Assembly: GCF_056712565.1 (NCBI RefSeq)
Contig: NZ_CM160072.1
Reading direction: 5' to 3' (one strand)
DNA: 64,000 bases
Shown here piece after piece: positions 3,814 to 34,590 of the stretch; within the stretch, counting starts at the first letter, position 1, and each line of letters begins with the position of its first letter. The position numbers and the translations under genes were made by a program. The notes beneath the pieces were generated by a model. The model ran no database searches. It was given only the letters and a program-made list of their open reading frames with translations, and was not told where the DNA came from.

Positions 3814-6246
3814 TTACAGCATGTGTTCGGTACGGGCGATGATATCGTCCTGTGCGTCTGGAGAGAGCGCGGTGAAGAAGGCGGAATAACCCGCTACGCG
3901 TACCACCAGATCGCGGTATTGATCCGGATGTTTCTTCGCCTCCAGCAATGTTTCGCGGGAAACAATGTTGTACTGAATATGCCAGCCTTTATGCACTTCA
4001 AAGAAGGTACGCAGCAGGATCATCAGTTTCTGCTTGTCAGATTCATTCTCCAGCGTTGCCGGATTCAGTTTCTGGTTGAGCAGCACGCCGCCGAGAATTG
4101 CTGCCGTAGGCAGTTTACCCACCGAGCCAATGACCGCAGTAGGGCCGAGATGGTCAGTACCGGAGGCCGGACTAGCGCCTTCTGCCAGCGGGGTATGTGC
4201 TTTACGTCCGTCCGGCGTTGCCATAGTCTGCGCGCCAAACGGTACGTTAGCGGAGATAGACGATGTGCCCGCATAATAGTTGCCGCCAATCGGACCACGA
4301 CCGTAGCGCGGGTTATGGTACTGCTTCAGTTCGTCGATATAGGTCTGATAAGCGCGAGCCAGCAGCGTATCGACAGTATCATCGTCGTTGCCGTACTTCG
4401 GCGCACCGTTAATCAGCCGCTGACGCAGCTGCTCGTGAGTCAGGCCGTCGAAGTCATCCGCCAGTGCGGCAGCCAGCTGTTGCTGACCAATCGCGCCCTG
4501 TTCAAATACCAGTTTCTTCACTGCCGCCAGGCTGTTGCCGAGGTTAGCAATGCCGACCTGCAGGCCAGAAACCCAGTCATATTTCGCGCCGCCTTGCTTG
4601 ATACTTTTCGCTCGCTCAATACAGTCATCGACCAGCGCCGAGCAGAGAATATCGTGTACGTTCTCTTCCAGCATGGTATCGACGACATATTCGATTTCGA
4701 TTGATTTACGCGTGTAGTAACGGATTTGCGTATCCCATGCGTCCATTACTTCATCGAAGTTGTTGAAGTTACCCGCTGACAACGCTTTTTCTTGTGGCAG
4801 GAACACTTTGCCGCTGGTGGCATCACGACCGCCTTCCAGCGCCGCCAGCATCACGCGGGCGAAGTTGATAAAGCTCATGCCGGTACAGCGATAGCCCCAT
4901 TTGCCACCGACGGCGGTTTCGATACAACCAATCGCTGCATAGTCGTAAGCGTCCTGCGGTTCAATACCGAGTTTAATAAATTCCGGGATGACGATTTCGT
5001 CGTTGTTGAACGCCGGCATCCCGAAACCACAGCGGATCACCTGAACACAGGCATCGAGGAAATCGTTGCTCATTCCCGCGTGGTAGCGCACGCTGAGGTT
5101 AGGCTGAGTGGAACGCAGGCGACCGCAAGATTCGAGGATCGCATAAGAGAGTGGATTTACCGCGTCCATCGGTTGACCATCAACCAGATTTTGCCCGCCA
5201 ATGGTGACGTTCTGATACAGTGGACTTCCCGCAGAGGCTTTTGAGTGTGAGCCGGAGCGGATTTTGTTCACTTCCAGCAATTTCAACCAGCAGCTATGCA
5301 GCATCTCGATGGCGTGTTCGCGATCCAGTGTCTGGTTCAGTTCAACGTCGCGGCGATAGTATGGGTAGAGATACTGGTCCATACGACCAAACGATACCGA
5401 GTGACCGTTAGATTCGATCTGCAAAATCAACTGGATGAAGTAACACAGTTGCAGCGCCTGCCAGAAAGTCTGCGGCGGCTGGTGGGCGATAAGATCGCAG
5501 TTTTCTGCTATCGTCAGCAGTTCATCGCGACGGCTTTCGCGGGTTTCGGTCGCGGCCATTTCACGCGCCAGGGCAGCGAAACGTTCAATGTGTTCACTGA
5601 CTGCCACCATCACGATATCAATCGCTTTCAGGAATTGCTCGCCATGTAAATCTTCCAGTACCGTCAGATTGATGCGCGAGCGACGTTCCGCCACTTTCTC
5701 ACGCAGACCATCAAGCCCTTTTTCCAGCAGTAGCGGGAAATTCACCGCCAGGTGCGCATCGCCGGAGGTCATATTGCCCTCCGCTTTAATGATGCCGGTC
5801 GCCAGCAGACCTTTTTGCTCATCGGTAAACATGCCGTAGCAGCGATCCTGTACGGTCTGACCGCGCCACCACGGGCACACTTCATGCAGAACACGTTTGT
5901 TCTCCTCGCTCACCGCAAAACCAGCACCCGGACGATCTGCCAGATCATCAATCTCTTTTTCGATCCAGGAGACGGTATATTCCGGGAAGATCGGCGCGGC
6001 GCGAACTTCGCTTGCCTGGTTGCCAATGATCAACTCATCGTGCTTGATCCAGATGGTGCGATTCGCCAGGTGATGCGCCAGTGCCAGCGCGCGACGTACC
6101 GGGATTGGCTTATCGAGATGTTGTTGATACATCTCGGTATAGTGTTGTGCTCGTTCGGTACAGACCGGCGGTTTCACAATATGCACCAGCGCATTTTTGT
6201 GCGCTTTAATGCGGTCGCTGAGCGTATCCAGTTTTAGTGTTGTCAT
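3814..6246 (-). CDS. ybiW: glycyl-radical enzyme, pyruvate formate-lyase-like
   Basis: 810 aa; C-terminal glycyl radical motif region (RVAGYSAFF); PFL-like length and context. Confidence 0.93.
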
Positions 6247-30959: not shown

Positions 30960-31042
30960 AGACCACGTCAAAATAAGAAGAGGGAAGACAACATTAGCAA
31001 GACTGTGTACATTTGTACACAATTGCAGAGAGAGGAAATGAC

Positions 31043-31579
31043 ATGCGTCGCGCTAACGATCCGCAACGGCGAGAAAAAATTATCCAGGCCACGCTGGAGG
31101 CGGTGAAACTTTACGGAATACATGCTGTTACACACCGCAAAATTGCTACCCTTGCCGGGGTGCCGTTGGGATCGATGACCTACTATTTTTCAGGAATTGA
31201 TGAGTTGTTGCTGGAGGCGTTCAGCCGTTTTACTGAGATCATGTCCCGGCAATATCAGGCATTTTTTAGCGATGTTAGTGATGCTCCAGGCGCATGCCAG
31301 GCTATCACCGATATGATCTACAGCTCACAGGTCGCAACGCCGGATAATATGGAGCTGATGTACCAGCTCTACGCGCTGGCTAGCCGAAAACCGCTCTTAA
31401 AAACGGTAATGCAAAACTGGATGCAGCGCAGTCAACAAACGCTCGAACAATGGTTTGAACCCGGAACCGCCCGCGCGCTTGATGCGTTTATTGAGGGAAT
31501 GACGCTGCATTTTGTCACCGACCGTAAGCCGCTATCACGCGAGGAGATTTTGAGGATGGTTGAGAGGATTGCTGGGTAG
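31043..31579 (+). CDS. rcdA: TetR-family transcriptional regulator
   Basis: 178 aa from [21 protein letters not shown]...; TetR N-terminal HTH. Confidence 0.85.
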
Positions 31580-31628
31580 TAGATAAATTTCAGGCAACAA
31601 AAAAACCATTTATGTAAACGGGTTAATG

Positions 31629-31662
31629 AAAACAATAAGTTAGATTAAAAACAATAAGTTAG
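31629..31662 (+). repeat. 15-bp direct repeat AAAACAATAAGTTAG x2 in the attL region
   Basis: Copies at 31629–31643 and 31648–31662, between the rcdA stop and the integrase stop; candidate att core or Int arm sites. Confidence 0.4.
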
Positions 31663-31683
31663 GTTGGTGGTCAGTGGTGGTTA

Positions 31684-32736
31684 TTACGGGGTAATGCCAA
31701 CCGCTGCCGCCACTTTGTCGCCACTTGGCAGCGTTGCCAGAGGATTGAAACGGAGCGCCGTTTCCAGATGATCCGGTGCCAGATGTGCGTAACGCATAGT
31801 CATTTTTATATCGTGGTGTCCGAGAATTTTTTGTAAGGCCAGAATGTTTCCACCCGACATCATGAAGTGCGCCGCAAACGTATGGCGCAGAACGTGTGTG
31901 AGTTGACCGCGAGGGAGCACGATAGACGTTTTTTCCATCACGGATAAAAATTGAAAATAGCAGTCTGTGAAGAAATTGAACCCATCAAGCGCCATGATCT
32001 CTTCGTAAAGCTCTTTACTGATAGGGATGCTTCTGTTTTTCTTCCCCTTCGTTCTGACAAAGGTAATTCGGTATTTGGTCACCTGTGAGCGGGTAAGATT
32101 TACGGCTTCACGCCAGCGTGCGCCTGTGCTTAAGCATATCTTAACTACCAGTGCCAGAATTGGGTCCTGACGTTTGCAATCAGCCAGCAATTCAACAATC
32201 TGCTCATGGGTAAGCCATGCCATCTCTTTTTCTGCGATGGTGAATTTTCGCATGTTCTCCAGTGGGTTCGGATACGACCATTCGCCCAGACGGGATAGTT
32301 CGCTAAAAACACTACTTAGATAGCTTTGCTCCAGGTTAATGGTGACCGGGCTTGCTCCTTTCTTCCATTTCTCGCTGAAGTAGATCTCGCCTGTCAGGCG
32401 TTTATCTCGATAATGGGCAAACATTTTAGAGGTGAGATCGGTTGCAAGAGGATTGCCCAGAGCGTCAACCATCAACAGCAATTTGTCATAGACATGCTGC
32501 CCAGCTGTCAGAGATTTACCATGTAGTTTGAACCATAGCTCAACCACGTCTTTCAGTGTTCGACGATCCACTGATTCACCCAGCCAGGGCTTTGCTTCGG
32601 TTTCTTCCATCGTGTGGCGCTCAAAAGCCAGTGCTTCGCCTTTGGTGGCGAATTGTTTACGCACACGACGCCCACTTCGTCCGGCGGGGTAACATTCGCA
32701 AAGCCATTTCCCAGTGGTGAGTTTTCGTACTGCCAT
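31684..32736 (-). CDS. int: phage integrase (tyrosine recombinase, P2-type)
   Basis: About 350 aa from MAVRKLTTGKW...; C-terminal catalytic region with HVLRHTFA and LGHHDIKMTMRYAHL (R, H-x-x-R, Y). Confidence 0.9.
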   Translation of the reverse strand: MAVRKLTTGKWLCECYPAGRSGRRVRKQFATKGEALAFERHTMEETEAKPWLGESVDRRTLKDVVELWFKLHGKSLTAGQHVYDKLLLMVDALGNPLATDLTSKMFAHYRDKRLTGEIYFSEKWKKGASPVTINLEQSYLSSVFSELSRLGEWSYPNPLENMRKFTIAEKEMAWLTHEQIVELLADCKRQDPILALVVKICLSTGARWREAVNLTRSQVTKYRITFVRTKGKKNRSIPISKELYEEIMALDGFNFFTDCYFQFLSVMEKTSIVLPRGQLTHVLRHTFAAHFMMSGGNILALQKILGHHDIKMTMRYAHLAPDHLETALRFNPLATLPSGDKVAAAVGITP

Positions 32737-32924
32737 AAAAAATGCCCTCCAGTAGAGAGCATTTTTACTGTATGTATAACCAGTGTCAATGTATGAAATC
32801 CTACGACCATACATCTCACTGAAGCCATAATGAAGTTGGCTATTCTTTTTGCTATGTGAGCATGTAACTTTTGCGGTTAACCTGCGGCTCATTTTTATTT
32901 TAGACGCAGATATAAAAGCAAAAG

Positions 32925-33116
32925 TTATCGTGAGTTTTTAGTACAGATTTTTTTGGATTTACTAATAGTTCCATCATTGCAAACAAATTTTCCATCGGAG
33001 GTACAGTGAGAGACACCTCCCTTTTTCCCAGAACAAGGATAATTTTTAGCATAGGTAGTTAGTGGGCTTAATAACAAAGAGCATGATAAAACCACAAAAA
33101 ATACTTTACCAAGCAT
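32925..33116 (-). CDS. small Cys-rich secreted peptide (moron candidate)
   Basis: 63 aa; signal peptide [23 protein letters not shown]; mature about 40 aa with 5 Cys; AT-rich; between int and repressor. Confidence 0.4.
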
Positions 33117-33131
33117 AGTTTCCTCCCGGTA

Positions 33132-33701
33132 TTATCTAACATATTTAACTGTTAAACTTATAATTTTACCAATTATTTCAATGTCTTCTATCTTACATTC
33201 GAAGGCTCTGTTTCCACCCTCGACGAAGATTCTTCCACCGGGTAAACGAGTAATGTCACGGATCGTTACTTCGCCATCAATACTTATTACCCATTTACCA
33301 TCACGTATGTCATCAAATTCTTTATCACAAATAAATTCAGAATTGTTATCTGTGATGACAAAAGGTTTTTTAAACGTAGAGGGTAGAAATCCCTTATCAA
33401 AAATATAAAAACCGTCTTCACGCAAGGCACCATCAGATAATACATATTTAGCAACTTCCATAGTATTTGTATTACCTGAAGTTTGCTTTGAACCATGTCC
33501 GGTTGTGAGCCAATTAAGCGAGGTGCCCGTTTCAAGGGCGCACTGGATTACCCATTCTGCTGGGAATGAGTCACGCATGTAGCGTGTGGCGAGTGTACTT
33601 TTAGAGATTCCTAAATGATCGCACAACGCCTGTCGAGTCTTGAATCCATAAGCTTCTACCATGCGCTCTATGGCGCCTCGTCCGCCTTTCTCCAAATTCA
33701 T
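33132..33701 (-). CDS. cI: 186 CI-like immunity repressor
   Basis: HTH region GRGAIERMVEAYGFKTRQALCDHLGISKSTLATRYMR; start taken at internal Met (MNLEKGG...) to leave a promoter region; adjacent and divergent to an Apl-like gene. Confidence 0.75.
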   Translation of the reverse strand: MNLEKGGRGAIERMVEAYGFKTRQALCDHLGISKSTLATRYMRDSFPAEWVIQCALETGTSLNWLTTGHGSKQTSGNTNTMEVAKYVLSDGALREDGFYIFDKGFLPSTFKKPFVITDNNSEFICDKEFDDIRDGKWVISIDGEVTIRDITRLPGGRIFVEGGNRAFECKIEDIEIIGKIISLTVKYVR

Positions 33702-33826
33702 GGTCACTCCAAGTGAACTTTTATCTTGACGATTTCGCCGTGCGATCGTATGTTTATGGTGTTCACAAAATACAAACGATCCGTATTCGTCCTGATTAAT
33801 CATCATTAAACGAGGAATGTTGCATC

Positions 33827-34048
33827 ATGAGACCTAACATTTCAATCACTCTTACCACGCCTCATGTGACTATTGAACGCTATAGCGAGCTGACAGGGCT
33901 ATCCATCGATACCATCAATGACATGTTGGCTGATGGACGCCTTATCCGTCACCGTCTGCGCAAAGATAAAAAACGCGAAAAAGTGATGATCAACATAGCA
34001 GCAATGACCGTTGATGCGCTTTCAGAATGCAATCTAAACCTTAATTAG
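33827..34048 (+). CDS. Apl/Cox-like excisionase-regulator
   Basis: 73 aa; small basic HTH protein ([11 protein letters not shown]) first in the rightward early operon. Confidence 0.55.
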
Positions 34049-34074: not shown

Positions 34075-34590
34075 TTGACCATGTTTGATTACCAAGTTTC
34101 CAAACATCCACATTTTGATGAAGCCTGTCGTGCATTTGCACTGCGCCACAATCTGGTGCAACTGGCAGAACGTGCAGGCATGAATGTGCAGATTCTGCGG
34201 AACAAGCTGAACCCAGCTCAGCCTCATTTATTAACCGCACCAGAAATCTGGCTGCTTACCGATCTGACTGAAGATTCAACGCTGGTAGATGGTTTTCTGG
34301 CACAGATTCATTGTCTGCCATGTGTACCGATTAATGAGGTGGCAAAAGAGAAACTGCCACATTACGTCATGAGTGCAACCGCAGAGATCGGGCGTGTTGC
34401 TGCAGGTGCGGTGTCTGGCGATGTAAAAACCTGTGCCGGTCGTCGTGATGCTATCAGCAGCATTAACTCTGTAACACGACTGATGGCGCTGGCTGCTGTT
34501 TCATTGCAGGCCCGTTTACAGGCTAATCCTGCGATGGCGAGTGCAGTTGATACCGTGACTGGCCTCGGTGCTTCATTCGGTTTGCTGTGA
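34075..34590 (+). CDS. CII-like phage regulatory protein
   Basis: 171 aa; position and size match 186 CII; HTH-like region [20 protein letters not shown]. Confidence 0.55.

What the first reader, a model, noticed from the sequence alone, without database searches (positions are those of the whole stretch)
32925..33116. Small Cys-rich secreted peptide gene between integrase and repressor
The 63-aa ORF has a strong signal peptide and a roughly 40-residue mature region with 5 cysteines, is AT-rich, and sits in a position that is empty in P2 and 186. It may be a lysogenic-conversion moron (toxin-like or bacteriocin-like peptide, or periplasmic inhibitor).
Basis: partly seen in the sequence, partly recalled or inferred. 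Interest (0 to 1): 0.4.

Follow-up and report, generated by a model that had tools for sequence, protein, structure and literature searches.

The report
Prophage YdcA-family periplasmic mini-protein gene
The small gene is real and belongs to the already catalogued but functionally unknown YdcA family: a 40-residue, disulfide-bonded, positively charged protein exported to the periplasm, which 186-like prophages carry directly behind their repressor gene and probably make in lysogens, perhaps to interfere with incoming foreign DNA.

Summary
The ORF at 32925..33116 (minus strand, 63 aa) is a real gene. It has a strong ribosome-binding site 15 nt after the cI stop codon. Across alleles, 18 of 22 variable sites are synonymous, and dN/dS against the most divergent allele is 0.04.

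It is not new. The exact protein is RefSeq WP_000900884.1, "YdcA family protein" (NCBIfam NF007463, Pfam PF27300, PHROG 6000), and about 12% of complete E. coli genomes carry it. No function is known for the family.

The mature 40-residue peptide has four conserved Cys; the fifth lies in the signal peptide and is not conserved.

The order cI, then ydcA, then int recurs in 186- and HP2-like prophages of E. coli, Enterobacter, Hafnia and Haemophilus. The slot is empty in 186 and P2 themselves. The mature domain is more conserved than cI in every comparison.

Elsewhere the same domain occurs:
- fused to three unrelated secreted nuclease families;
- on small mobilizable plasmids;
- probably as each lobe of Legionella Dot/Icm protein Dis2.

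Best reading: a lysogen-expressed periplasmic accessory ("moron") gene that likely acts on DNA traffic through the cell envelope, such as superinfection or entry exclusion. That mechanism is inferred, not shown. A toxin or bacteriocin reading is not supported.

The parts
32925..33116 (-). ydcA-family gene: 63-aa precursor plus stop codon (32925..32927)
   Evidence: ORF list. NCBIfam NF007463 scores 115.3 bits against a cutoff of 93. PHROG 6000, E 9e-34. The identical locus in RefSeq is annotated 'YdcA family protein', WP_000900884.1. dN/dS 0.044.
33048..33116 (-). Predicted Sec signal peptide, residues 1-23 ([23 protein letters not shown]), with SPase I cleavage after T-Y-A
   Evidence: Hydrophobicity profile. 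Signal regions vary between homologues (12-35% identity), but the Ala at -1 is invariant. Cys12 is not conserved and does not fit a lipobox: it lies too close to the N-terminus and K4 falls within the preceding residues. The lipobox check is my own reading of the sequence.
32928..33047 (-). Mature peptide: 40 aa, 4.27 kDa, pI 9.6, net charge +7, four Cys. Core motif is N-x-PCSGxKGG[IV]SHC-x(3-5)-F[VI]CxDG[ST]xSxSKxxC
   Evidence: AlphaFold2 model of the mature domain has mean pLDDT 80, and 82-89 across the core.
33122..33127 (-). Shine-Dalgarno GGGAGG, 5 nt upstream of the ATG, inside the 15-nt gap after the cI stop codon
   Evidence: Read directly from the sequence.
33132..33701 (-). 186-type cI repressor gene (189 aa as annotated by PGAP), immediately upstream in the same operon
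   Evidence: PF07022 E 8e-34 and PF16452 E 8e-29. PGAP start position.
32737..32924 (-). 188-nt AT-rich spacer between ydcA and int. No minus-strand terminator was detected. Contains a promoter-like TTGACA-17-AAAAAT at 32789..32761
   Evidence: The overall promoter count is not above the shuffle expectation, so this site is only a candidate. The first 58 nt upstream of int are 96.6% identical to Klebsiella phage 4LV2017.
31684..32736 (-). P2/186-type tyrosine integrase, the downstream gene of the lysogenic operon
   Evidence: PF24624 and PF00589. Annotated 'phage integrase'.
33827..34590 (+). Divergent early lytic genes, given for context: an apl/cox-like 73-aa ORF (33827..34048) and cII (34081..34590)
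   Evidence: PF06892 E 4e-42 for cII. Gene order matches 186.

Best explanation
The ORF is a genuine accessory (moron) gene of a 186-like prophage integrated beside rcdA in E. coli.

Expression (inferred). It is transcribed with cI and int from the lysogenic promoter, so lysogens make the protein.

Product (predicted). The 63-aa precursor is exported by the Sec pathway and cut after Ala23. This yields a 40-residue, strongly basic periplasmic mini-protein of the YdcA family (Pfam PF27300), held together by two disulfides.

Proposed mechanism (inferred). The YdcA domain is a small extracytoplasmic module that binds DNA, or binds envelope machinery through which DNA passes. As a stand-alone protein made by a prophage or a plasmid, it would hinder entry of foreign DNA, that is, superinfection or entry exclusion. 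This would benefit both the lysogen and the resident element.

Shown here: the gene is real, it belongs to the family, it has a signal-peptide architecture, its position is conserved, and it is under purifying selection.

Inferred only: co-transcription with cI, export and disulfide formation, DNA or machinery binding, and any exclusion phenotype.

Confidence is about 0.9 for 'lysogen-expressed periplasmic YdcA-family moron' and about 0.35 for the DNA-entry mechanism.
For: Gene and family
- NF007463 scores 115 bits against a cutoff of 93. PF27300 'YdcA' is assigned to the protein's cluster. PGAP names it 'YdcA family protein'.
- dN/dS is 0.044, and 18 of 22 variable sites are synonymous.

Operon
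- 15 nt separate the cI stop from the ydcA ATG, with GGGAGG as ribosome-binding site.
- In HP2 the ATG overlaps the cI stop (TAATG). In Enterobacter and Hafnia the ydcA stop lies 2 nt before int.
- The pL lysogenic operon is annotated in 186, K139 and HP2.

Conserved linkage to the repressor
- E. coli, two immunity types; Enterobacter; Hafnia; Haemophilus HP2/S2 and Pasteurellaceae metagenomes.
- A Comamonas P2-like prophage has ydcA behind an HTH_3 gene (78).
- The mature domain is 64-90% identical where cI is only 35-71%.

The slot carries lysogen cargo, some of it defence-related
- A KAP NTPase, PADLOC candidate PDC-S20, follows ydcA in a variant prophage.
- Other cargo fills the slot in phages 813R9 and 4LV2017.
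- K139 has Glo, a periplasmic exclusion protein, in the same slot.
- A cI-int defence hotspot is reported for K139-like phages (PMC9122126).

Link to DNA
- The domain is fused N-terminally to Endonuclease_NS. All 120 listed top hits of such a fusion carry PF27300 + PF01223, out of 744 hits in total.
- It is also fused to SNase, inside a P2-like prophage, and to a PLD-type domain of the kind found in some nucleases.
- The domain's net charge averages +4, and is +7 here.

Other mobile elements
- 58 plasmids carry it, including a 3.9-kb MOBQ plasmid with only five genes.
- Acinetobacter and Moraxella prophages carry it in moron slots next to toxin-antitoxin genes.

Structure
Against: - There is no experimental datum for any YdcA-family protein binding DNA or excluding phage.
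- YdcA matches no PADLOC model.
- The nuclease fusions are equally compatible with an envelope-anchoring or localisation role.
- Dis2, the probable structural relative, contacts lipoproteins (DotC, DotD, DotK), not the translocation channel. Its deletion has only subtle effects (PMC12716638).
- The chromosomal E. coli ydcA has been linked only to acid and 3-hydroxypropionate tolerance (PMC7642389).
- The pL promoter and the transcript were not demonstrated here. The promoter scan is not above background.
- No isolated enterobacterial phage in the phage collection carries the gene. No phage with a known exclusion phenotype can therefore be tied to it.
Confidence: 0.4

Rival explanations
1. Host-fitness or envelope-stress factor. 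The prophage copy does what the chromosomal ydcA may do: help the cell envelope tolerate acid or organic-acid stress. This would be lysogenic conversion that benefits the host, with no role in phage or DNA exclusion.
For: - The chromosomal ydcA deletion makes E. coli W sensitive to 300 mM 3-hydroxypropionate. ydcA is reported as acid-induced via YdcI (PMC7642389).
- The mature domain is nearly identical across very different prophages and hosts. That fits a conserved host-side target.
- Carriers listed among the best matches include avian and human extraintestinal pathogenic isolates.
Against: - The 3-HP phenotype is a single observation and was overridden by a yieP deletion.
- This reading does not explain the recurrent fusion to nucleases.
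- It does not explain the gene's presence on a 5-gene mobilizable plasmid.
- It does not explain the tight linkage to immunity repressors.
Confidence: 0.2
2. Envelope adaptor or anchor. The YdcA domain is a disulfide-knotted module that docks onto outer-membrane lipoproteins, peptidoglycan or LPS, as Dis2 does in the Dot/Icm outer-membrane cap. The prophage protein would mask or modify a surface or periplasmic receptor rather than bind DNA.
For: - Dis2 is the top PDB hit by sequence (E 1.9e-5 for the full precursor, 0.023 for the domain-only profile).
- Dis2 is also the top hit by predicted fold (TM-score normalised to the query 0.60, probability 0.89).
- Dis2 sits near the outer membrane and contacts DotK, DotC and DotD (PMC8486379 and PMC12716638).
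- An anchor would also make sense as an N-terminal module of secreted nucleases.
Against: - There are no T4SS genes near the gene.
- No binding partner is known.
Confidence: 0.2
3. Periplasmic enzyme inhibitor. A small disulfide-rich protein that inhibits a protease or a lysozyme-type enzyme, for example the tail-associated muralytic enzyme of a superinfecting phage, as T4 Spackle does. (The Spackle comparison is from my own knowledge.)
For: - Weak sequence resemblance to Pin-II (potato type II) proteinase inhibitors (E 0.24-2.2).
- One metagenomic record names a homologue after a serine-proteinase/inhibitor complex.
- The size, disulfides and periplasmic location fit known inhibitors.
Against: - None of the similarities is significant.
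- Pin-II domains have eight Cys, whereas this domain has four (Pin-II count from my own knowledge).
- Recurrent fusion partners are nucleases, not proteases or muramidases.
Confidence: 0.1
4. Secreted toxin or bacteriocin-like peptide.
For: It is small, cationic, Cys-containing and has a signal peptide.
Against: - A Sec signal peptide alone delivers the product only to the periplasm of a Gram-negative cell.
- There is no adjacent immunity, processing or export gene.
- A chromosomal paralogue exists in E. coli K-12 and most other E. coli.
- The domain occurs in tandem repeats and as an N-terminal module of enzymes.
- It is extremely conserved, whereas toxins and bacteriocins usually diversify (my own expectation).
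Confidence: 0.04

Closest known systems
YdcA family (Pfam PF27300 'YdcA'; NCBIfam NF007463/PRK10040; PHROG 6000; E. coli K-12 YdcA)
   Same: This protein is a member. It scores above the curated NCBIfam cutoff and has the same architecture of signal peptide plus 4-Cys core. The exact protein is RefSeq WP_000900884.1, 'YdcA family protein'.
   Different: The K-12 ydcA gene is chromosomal and about 75% identical at DNA level over the core only. This copy is phage-borne, sits behind cI, and has a different signal peptide. The family has no established function.
Glo of Vibrio phage K139 (periplasmic protein involved in phage exclusion)
   Same: It occupies the same slot, between cI and int in the pL lysogenic operon of a P2-related phage. 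It is also a periplasmic product, and the record annotates it as involved in phage exclusion.
   Different: There is no detectable homology (hhalign probability 4%). Glo is 137 aa. Exclusion by the YdcA-type protein is untested.
[quoted passage not shown]
   Same: - It is the best PDB match both by sequence and by predicted structure (38% identity over 39 columns).
- Each Dis2 lobe shows the pattern C-S-K-x-G-G-I-x-x-C ... V-C-N-[ND]-G.
- It is disulfide-stabilised and lies near the outer membrane (PMC8486379).
   Different: - Dis2 has two lobes and five disulfides, and it is a stoichiometric T4SS component. The phage protein has one lobe, four Cys and no T4SS context.
- The statistical support is borderline.
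Secreted nucleases of other mobile elements that degrade incoming DNA (ICE-encoded IdeA/SxnA of V. cholerae, prophage CJIE1 Dns of C. jejuni)
   Same: They are mobile-element-encoded, extracytoplasmic, and act on incoming DNA (review PMC12378983). YdcA-nuclease fusions exist, and one lies in a P2-like prophage.
   Different: The window's protein has no nuclease domain. It is only the small module that such fusions carry at the N-terminus.
Prophage defence and moron hotspots of P2-like phages
   Same: The cI-int interval of 186-like prophages holds variable cargo, including a PADLOC candidate defence gene. A cI-int hotspot is described for K139-like Vibrio phages (PMC9122126).
   Different: As I recall that paper, its hotspots in E. 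coli P2-like phages lie at other loci; I did not check this here. ydcA itself is not a recognised defence gene.

Membership tests
YdcA family (NCBIfam NF007463 / Pfam PF27300) | Scores above the curated family cutoff | tested here: met
   NF007463: 115.3 bits against a cutoff of 93, covering residues 5-63 on model positions 1-58 of 58. PF27300 is precomputed for the cluster representative, and the exact sequence is in that cluster. The Pfam name 'YdcA' is shown. The local Pfam copy lacks this model, so one search gave no hit.
YdcA family (NCBIfam NF007463 / Pfam PF27300) | N-terminal signal peptide followed by the conserved 4-Cys core PCSGxKGG..C..F.C.DG..S.SK..C | tested here: met
   Alignment of 27 homologues: A23, K32, G33, G34, C38, F44, C46, D48, G49, S52, S54 and K55 are invariant; C28 and C58 are at least 90% conserved. 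The same motif appears in 183 distinct domain sequences.
YdcA family (NCBIfam NF007463 / Pfam PF27300) | Export to the periplasm and disulfide formation | not testable with these tools
   Only predicted, from the signal-peptide features. No experimental data were found.
Dis2-type domain (Legionella Dot/Icm outer-membrane cap) | Significant sequence similarity to the Dis2 lobes | tested here: inconclusive
   phmmer with the full precursor gives E 1.9e-5, but that alignment includes the signal peptide. The domain-only profile gives E 0.023, tied with LDL-receptor class A repeats. A two-repeat family member gives no PDB hit.
Dis2-type domain (Legionella Dot/Icm outer-membrane cap) | Same fold | tested here: inconclusive
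   [not shown]
Dis2-type domain (Legionella Dot/Icm outer-membrane cap) | Two lobes with five disulfides, encoded in an organism with a Dot/Icm T4SS and part of that machine | tested here: not met
   Single domain, four Cys in the mature part. The neighbours are phage lysogeny genes and E. coli rcdA/ybjJ.
Prophage periplasmic superinfection-exclusion proteins (K139 Glo as type) | Encoded in the lysogenic operon between repressor and integrase | tested here: met
   Same strand as cI and int. It lies 15 nt after cI, with no minus-strand terminator before int.
Prophage periplasmic superinfection-exclusion proteins (K139 Glo as type) | Sequence homology to Glo | tested here: not met
   hhalign probability 4%, only 5 aligned columns.
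Prophage periplasmic superinfection-exclusion proteins (K139 Glo as type) | Reduces infection by a superinfecting phage | not testable with these tools
   Needs plating and DNA-injection assays.
Known anti-phage defence systems (PADLOC-DB v2) | Match to a defence-protein model | tested here: not met
   No PADLOC hit for the peptide. The KAP NTPase next to ydcA in a variant prophage hits PDC-S20 at E 1e-171.
Bacteriocin / secreted peptide toxin | Adjacent immunity and/or dedicated export or processing genes | tested here: not met
   The only neighbours are cI and int. In other prophages the neighbours vary, and none is a transporter or immunity-like partner kept together with ydcA.
Bacterial lipoprotein | Lipobox with a conserved Cys at +1 after a signal peptide of usual length | tested here: not met
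   Cys12 follows V-L-S, but it is only 12 residues from the N-terminus, with K4 inside the preceding stretch. It is absent from most homologues. The conserved cleavage motif is of the A-x-A type, ending at Ala23.
Pin-II (potato type II) proteinase inhibitors | Significant similarity and the eight-Cys pattern | tested here: not met
   E 0.24-2.2 only. There are four Cys rather than eight; the Pin-II count is from my own knowledge.

The most novel reading that the evidence does not exclude
The YdcA domain would be a previously unrecognised, very small (about 35 residues, two disulfides) extracytoplasmic module dedicated to DNA traffic across the Gram-negative envelope.

- Temperate phages (coupled to their repressors) and small plasmids would use it as a stand-alone entry or superinfection-exclusion factor.
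- Three nuclease superfamilies would use it as a substrate-binding or targeting module.
- Duplicated, it would form the Dis2 subunit of the Dot/Icm T4SS.

This would make 'cI-ydcA' a widespread two-gene immunity-plus-exclusion unit of Peduoviridae.
Probability: 0.3. Interest if true: 0.6.

Novelty: already known. Interest (0 to 1): 0.35.

Why it matters
About one in nine complete E. coli genomes carries this gene, including BL21 and its derivative BLR(DE3). Relatives are very common in Acinetobacter baumannii, Haemophilus and Moraxella prophages. Yet the family has no known function.

Its conserved placement directly behind prophage repressors implies it is made whenever the prophage is silent. 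It could therefore shape phage susceptibility, gene transfer or envelope properties of many clinical and laboratory strains.

If the DNA-entry hypothesis holds, it would:
- add a very small new class of exclusion factor;
- give a function to an accessory domain of many secreted nucleases;
- offer a lead for Dis2, a Dot/Icm component whose role is unclear.

If it does not hold, the finding is simply a correctly identified member of an uncharacterised family.

Tried and rejected
- **Local Pfam scan.** It gave only a sub-threshold chance hit, because PF27300 is newer than the local copy. The family surfaced through NCBIfam and PHROGs and the precomputed Pfam column.
- **DNA search of the phage collection.** It found only the int-proximal 58 nt, in Klebsiella phages. 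tblastn found no isolated enterobacterial phage with the gene.
- **PADLOC.** No hit for the peptide.
- **Rfam and tRNA scans of 31.4-34.4 kb.** Nothing relevant.
- **Terminators and promoters.** No minus-strand terminator between cI, ydcA and int. Promoter-like sites are not above the shuffle expectation, so I do not claim a dedicated promoter.
- **Lipoprotein reading of Cys12.** Rejected: the position is wrong and the residue is not conserved.
- **Chance ORF in AT-rich DNA.** Rejected on dN/dS and cross-genus conservation.
- **Homology to K139 Glo.** Rejected.
- **Other weak PDB matches.** Profile hits to LDL-receptor class A repeats, hepsin and hen lysozyme (E 0.02-0.9) are treated as Cys-pattern coincidences.
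- **Domain-architecture census.** A domain-only profile search listed only single-domain proteins in its top 120. The architecture evidence comes instead.
- **Literature on ydcA.** No functional study was found beyond the 3-HP/acid observation. Many 'ydcA' hits refer to unrelated Bacillus or Neisseria genes.

Full report
**1. The observation**

The window holds an ATG-started ORF of 63 codons on the minus strand at 32925..33116. Its translation is [63 protein letters not shown].

Upstream on the same strand is a 186-type CI repressor gene (33132..33701; PF07022 E 8e-34, PF16452 E 8e-29). Downstream is a P2/186-type integrase (31684..32736; PF24624, PF00589). Across the divergent control region lie an apl/cox-like ORF and cII (PF06892). 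The element is therefore a 186-like prophage.

An identical locus in RefSeq shows the prophage inserted beside rcdA and ybjJ of E. coli.

The gene has 33.9% GC against 50.5% for the window. In phage 186, cI abuts int. In P2, C and int are 115 nt apart with no gene between them.

One detail is wrong. Only four cysteines (C28, C38, C46, C58) lie in the mature part. C12 is inside the signal peptide and is not conserved.

**2. Is it a real gene?**

Yes.

- A GGGAGG Shine-Dalgarno sequence sits 5 nt before the ATG, inside a 15-nt gap after the cI stop codon.
- The 80 IMG/VR viral contigs carrying close relatives, together with the window, give 13 distinct alleles. Of 22 variable sites, 18 are synonymous.
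- Against the most divergent allele, dS = 0.31 and dN = 0.014, so dN/dS = 0.044.
- 627 of 5426 complete E. coli genomes carry the gene at 93% identity or more. BL21 and its derivative BLR(DE3) are among them.
- 483 IMG/VR contigs encode a relative.

**3. What it is**

The peptide scores above the curated cutoff of NCBIfam NF007463 (PRK10040.1-2): 115.3 bits against 93. It matches PHROG 6000 at E 9e-34. It falls in a cluster that carries Pfam PF27300, named "YdcA". Current PGAP annotation calls the identical protein, WP_000900884.1, "YdcA family protein". The gene is thus already catalogued. The family, however, has no assigned function.

The literature search found only one relevant study. Deleting the chromosomal ydcA sensitises E. 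coli W to 3-hydroxypropionate, and the gene is reported as acid-induced through YdcI (PMC7642389).

**4. Anatomy**

In an alignment of 27 homologues, the first ~23 residues vary freely, but the Ala at the -1 position is invariant. Strong conservation begins right after it. This is the signature of a Sec signal peptide cut by signal peptidase I.

The mature product is 40 residues, 4.27 kDa, pI 9.6, with net charge +7.

The core motif is N-x-PCSGxKGG[IV]SHC-x(3-5)-F[VI]CxDG[ST]xSxSKxxC. It recurs almost unchanged in 183 distinct domain sequences. An exhaustive profile search finds 469 clusters at 50% identity.

AlphaFold2 models give a small two-strand unit with pLDDT of about 82-91 across the core.

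The lipoprotein reading of Cys12 fails on both position and conservation.

**5. Position is conserved**

The same order, cI then ydcA then int on one strand, is found in:

- a second E. coli immunity type (cI 71% identical), where a KAP NTPase gene follows ydcA;
- Enterobacter, with the ydcA stop 2 nt before int;
- Hafnia, with an extra 143-aa ORF between cI and ydcA;
- Haemophilus phages HP2 and S2, where the ORF is unannotated and its ATG overlaps the cI stop as TAATG;
- Pasteurellaceae metagenomic prophages.

A Comamonas P2-like prophage has ydcA directly behind an HTH_3 regulator.

Across these elements the mature YdcA domain stays 64-90% identical. Over the same comparisons, cI is 35-71% identical and int 47-98%.

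In 186, K139 and HP2, the cI-to-int operon is annotated as transcribed from pL in lysogens. No minus-strand terminator lies between cI, ydcA and int here. Co-transcription with cI is therefore the parsimonious inference, but I did not show it.

**6. The slot is a cargo site**

Other 186-like phages carry different genes between cI and int:

- a 1.7-kb ATPase gene in vB_EcoM-813R9, integrated at the same rcdA site;
- a 350-aa hypothetical protein in Klebsiella phage 4LV2017.

The KAP NTPase that follows ydcA in the variant prophage matches PADLOC candidate system PDC-S20 at E 1e-171.

Vibrio phage K139 has, in this same slot, glo, annotated as "periplasmic protein; involved in phage exclusion". 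Rousset et al. describe a defence hotspot between cI and int of K139-like phages (PMC9122126).

Glo and YdcA are not detectably homologous. YdcA has no PADLOC match.

**7. Clues to function from elsewhere**

(a) Domain fusions. The YdcA domain occurs after a signal peptide at the N-terminus of secreted Endonuclease_NS enzymes. All 120 listed best hits of one such fusion carry PF27300 + PF01223, out of 744 hits; many are from Methylobacter and other Methylococcales. It is also fused to a staphylococcal-nuclease domain, in a gene inside a P2-like prophage, and to a PLD-type domain of the kind found in some nucleases. Other partners are the PBCV basic adaptor domain (twice), VasL and DUF4124. Tandem repeats of two or three domains also occur.

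(b) Other mobile elements. In Acinetobacter and Moraxella siphovirus prophages the gene sits in a variable slot before the tape-measure gene. Its neighbours there include HicAB, SocA, Arc/KilA-N and DUF4236 genes. It is on 58 plasmids, including a 3.9-kb MOBQ plasmid with only five genes.

(c) Structure. By both sequence and predicted fold, the best PDB match is Dis2 (Lpg0823) of the Legionella Dot/Icm T4SS. Dis2 is a two-lobed protein with five disulfides, located near the outer membrane. It was reported to have no structural relatives and to be confined to Legionella and its relatives such as Coxiella.

**8. Most likely mechanism**

I hold with high confidence (about 0.9) that this is a lysogen-expressed, Sec-exported, disulfide-bonded periplasmic mini-protein: a moron of the lysogenic operon.

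For what it does, the commonest thread in the evidence is DNA crossing the envelope. The domain is linked to:

- three nuclease families;
- phages and plasmids;
- a cargo slot that holds an exclusion protein in K139 and defence candidates in relatives;
- a T4SS component as its likely structural cousin;
- a strongly basic surface.

I therefore propose that the domain binds DNA or DNA-entry machinery in the periplasm, and that the stand-alone phage protein hinders entry of foreign DNA (superinfection or entry exclusion). I put this at about 0.35. No step of it has been shown.

The rivals are:

- a host envelope-stress or fitness factor (0.2);
- an envelope adaptor or receptor mask without DNA binding (0.2);
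- a periplasmic enzyme inhibitor (0.1);
- a toxin or bacteriocin (0.04).

The last is disfavoured for four reasons. There is no export route beyond the periplasm and no immunity gene. A chromosomal paralogue exists. The domain is used as a module in larger enzymes. And it is extremely conserved.

**9. Novelty and verdict**

The gene and its family are already in the databases, so the finding itself is "already known": an annotated family member of unknown function.

As far as my literature searches went, three points may be new:

- the conserved coupling of ydcA to the repressor gene across 186-, HP2- and P2-like prophages;
- the unannotated copy in HP2/S2;
- the large YdcA-nuclease fusion family and the probable link to Dis2.

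These turn an anonymous small ORF into a testable hypothesis. They are leads, not results. Interest is moderate (0.35).

Noticed in passing
[not shown]
   Followed up: partly
L085 5198..6529 (E. coli variant prophage at the same rcdA site): A 443-aa KAP-family NTPase is inserted between ydcA and int. It matches PADLOC candidate defence system PDC-S20 (E 1e-171) and, more weakly, PifA and QatA. The cI-int interval of 186-like E. coli prophages thus behaves as a cargo or defence slot. vB_EcoM-813R9 carries a 1.7-kb ATPase gene there instead.
   Followed up: partly
window 33132..33806 (-): The cI reading frame stays open 35 codons upstream of the annotated start (a 224-aa ORF against the 189 aa that PGAP calls). 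The Pfam match begins at residue 44 of the long form, and GGAG precedes the internal ATG at 33701. The shorter protein is therefore the likely product.
   Followed up: partly
window 31580..31700 and 31013..31579: The prophage is integrated immediately downstream of rcdA (a TetR-family regulator), next to ybjJ. It is not at a tRNA gene as 186 is (ileY), and no tRNA lies within 30-35 kb of the window. The att core was not mapped.
   Followed up: no
L095-L099 (Acinetobacter baumannii prophages), gene at 5001..5177 and its neighbour starting at 5186 or 5269: In A. baumannii siphovirus prophages, ydcA is followed by a DUF4236 gene in all five places examined. The surrounding cargo varies: HicAB, SocA_Panacea, Arc/KilA-N, YedD, DUF4325. 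This version of the protein is extremely common; the index lists it in 4261 blocks of the collection.
   Followed up: no
L118 728..904 (Acinetobacter pittii plasmid pApiMCR53a, 3916 bp): A YdcA-family gene is one of only five genes on a 3.9-kb MOBQ mobilizable plasmid, next to a small 'TraD' gene and opposite MobA/MobL. This may be the source of the 'conjugal transfer protein' name that UniRef gives to the E. coli phage protein.
   Followed up: no
protein family level (P0056, P0057, P0060, P0114): Some family members carry a second small Cys-containing basic module, C-x-C-x(5)-C-T-G-x-R-G-G-x-Y-C. Two of the 60 longer proteins scanned match Pfam PBCV_basic_adap (PF08789), a domain described from chlorella viruses.
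   Followed up: no
window 32871..32887 (+): A weak hairpin containing the palindrome GGTTAACC, followed by a T-run, scores as terminator-like on the plus strand. It lies in the ydcA-int spacer. No plus-strand gene ends there, and on the minus strand its G-U pairs become mismatches. Its meaning, if any, is unknown.
   Followed up: no
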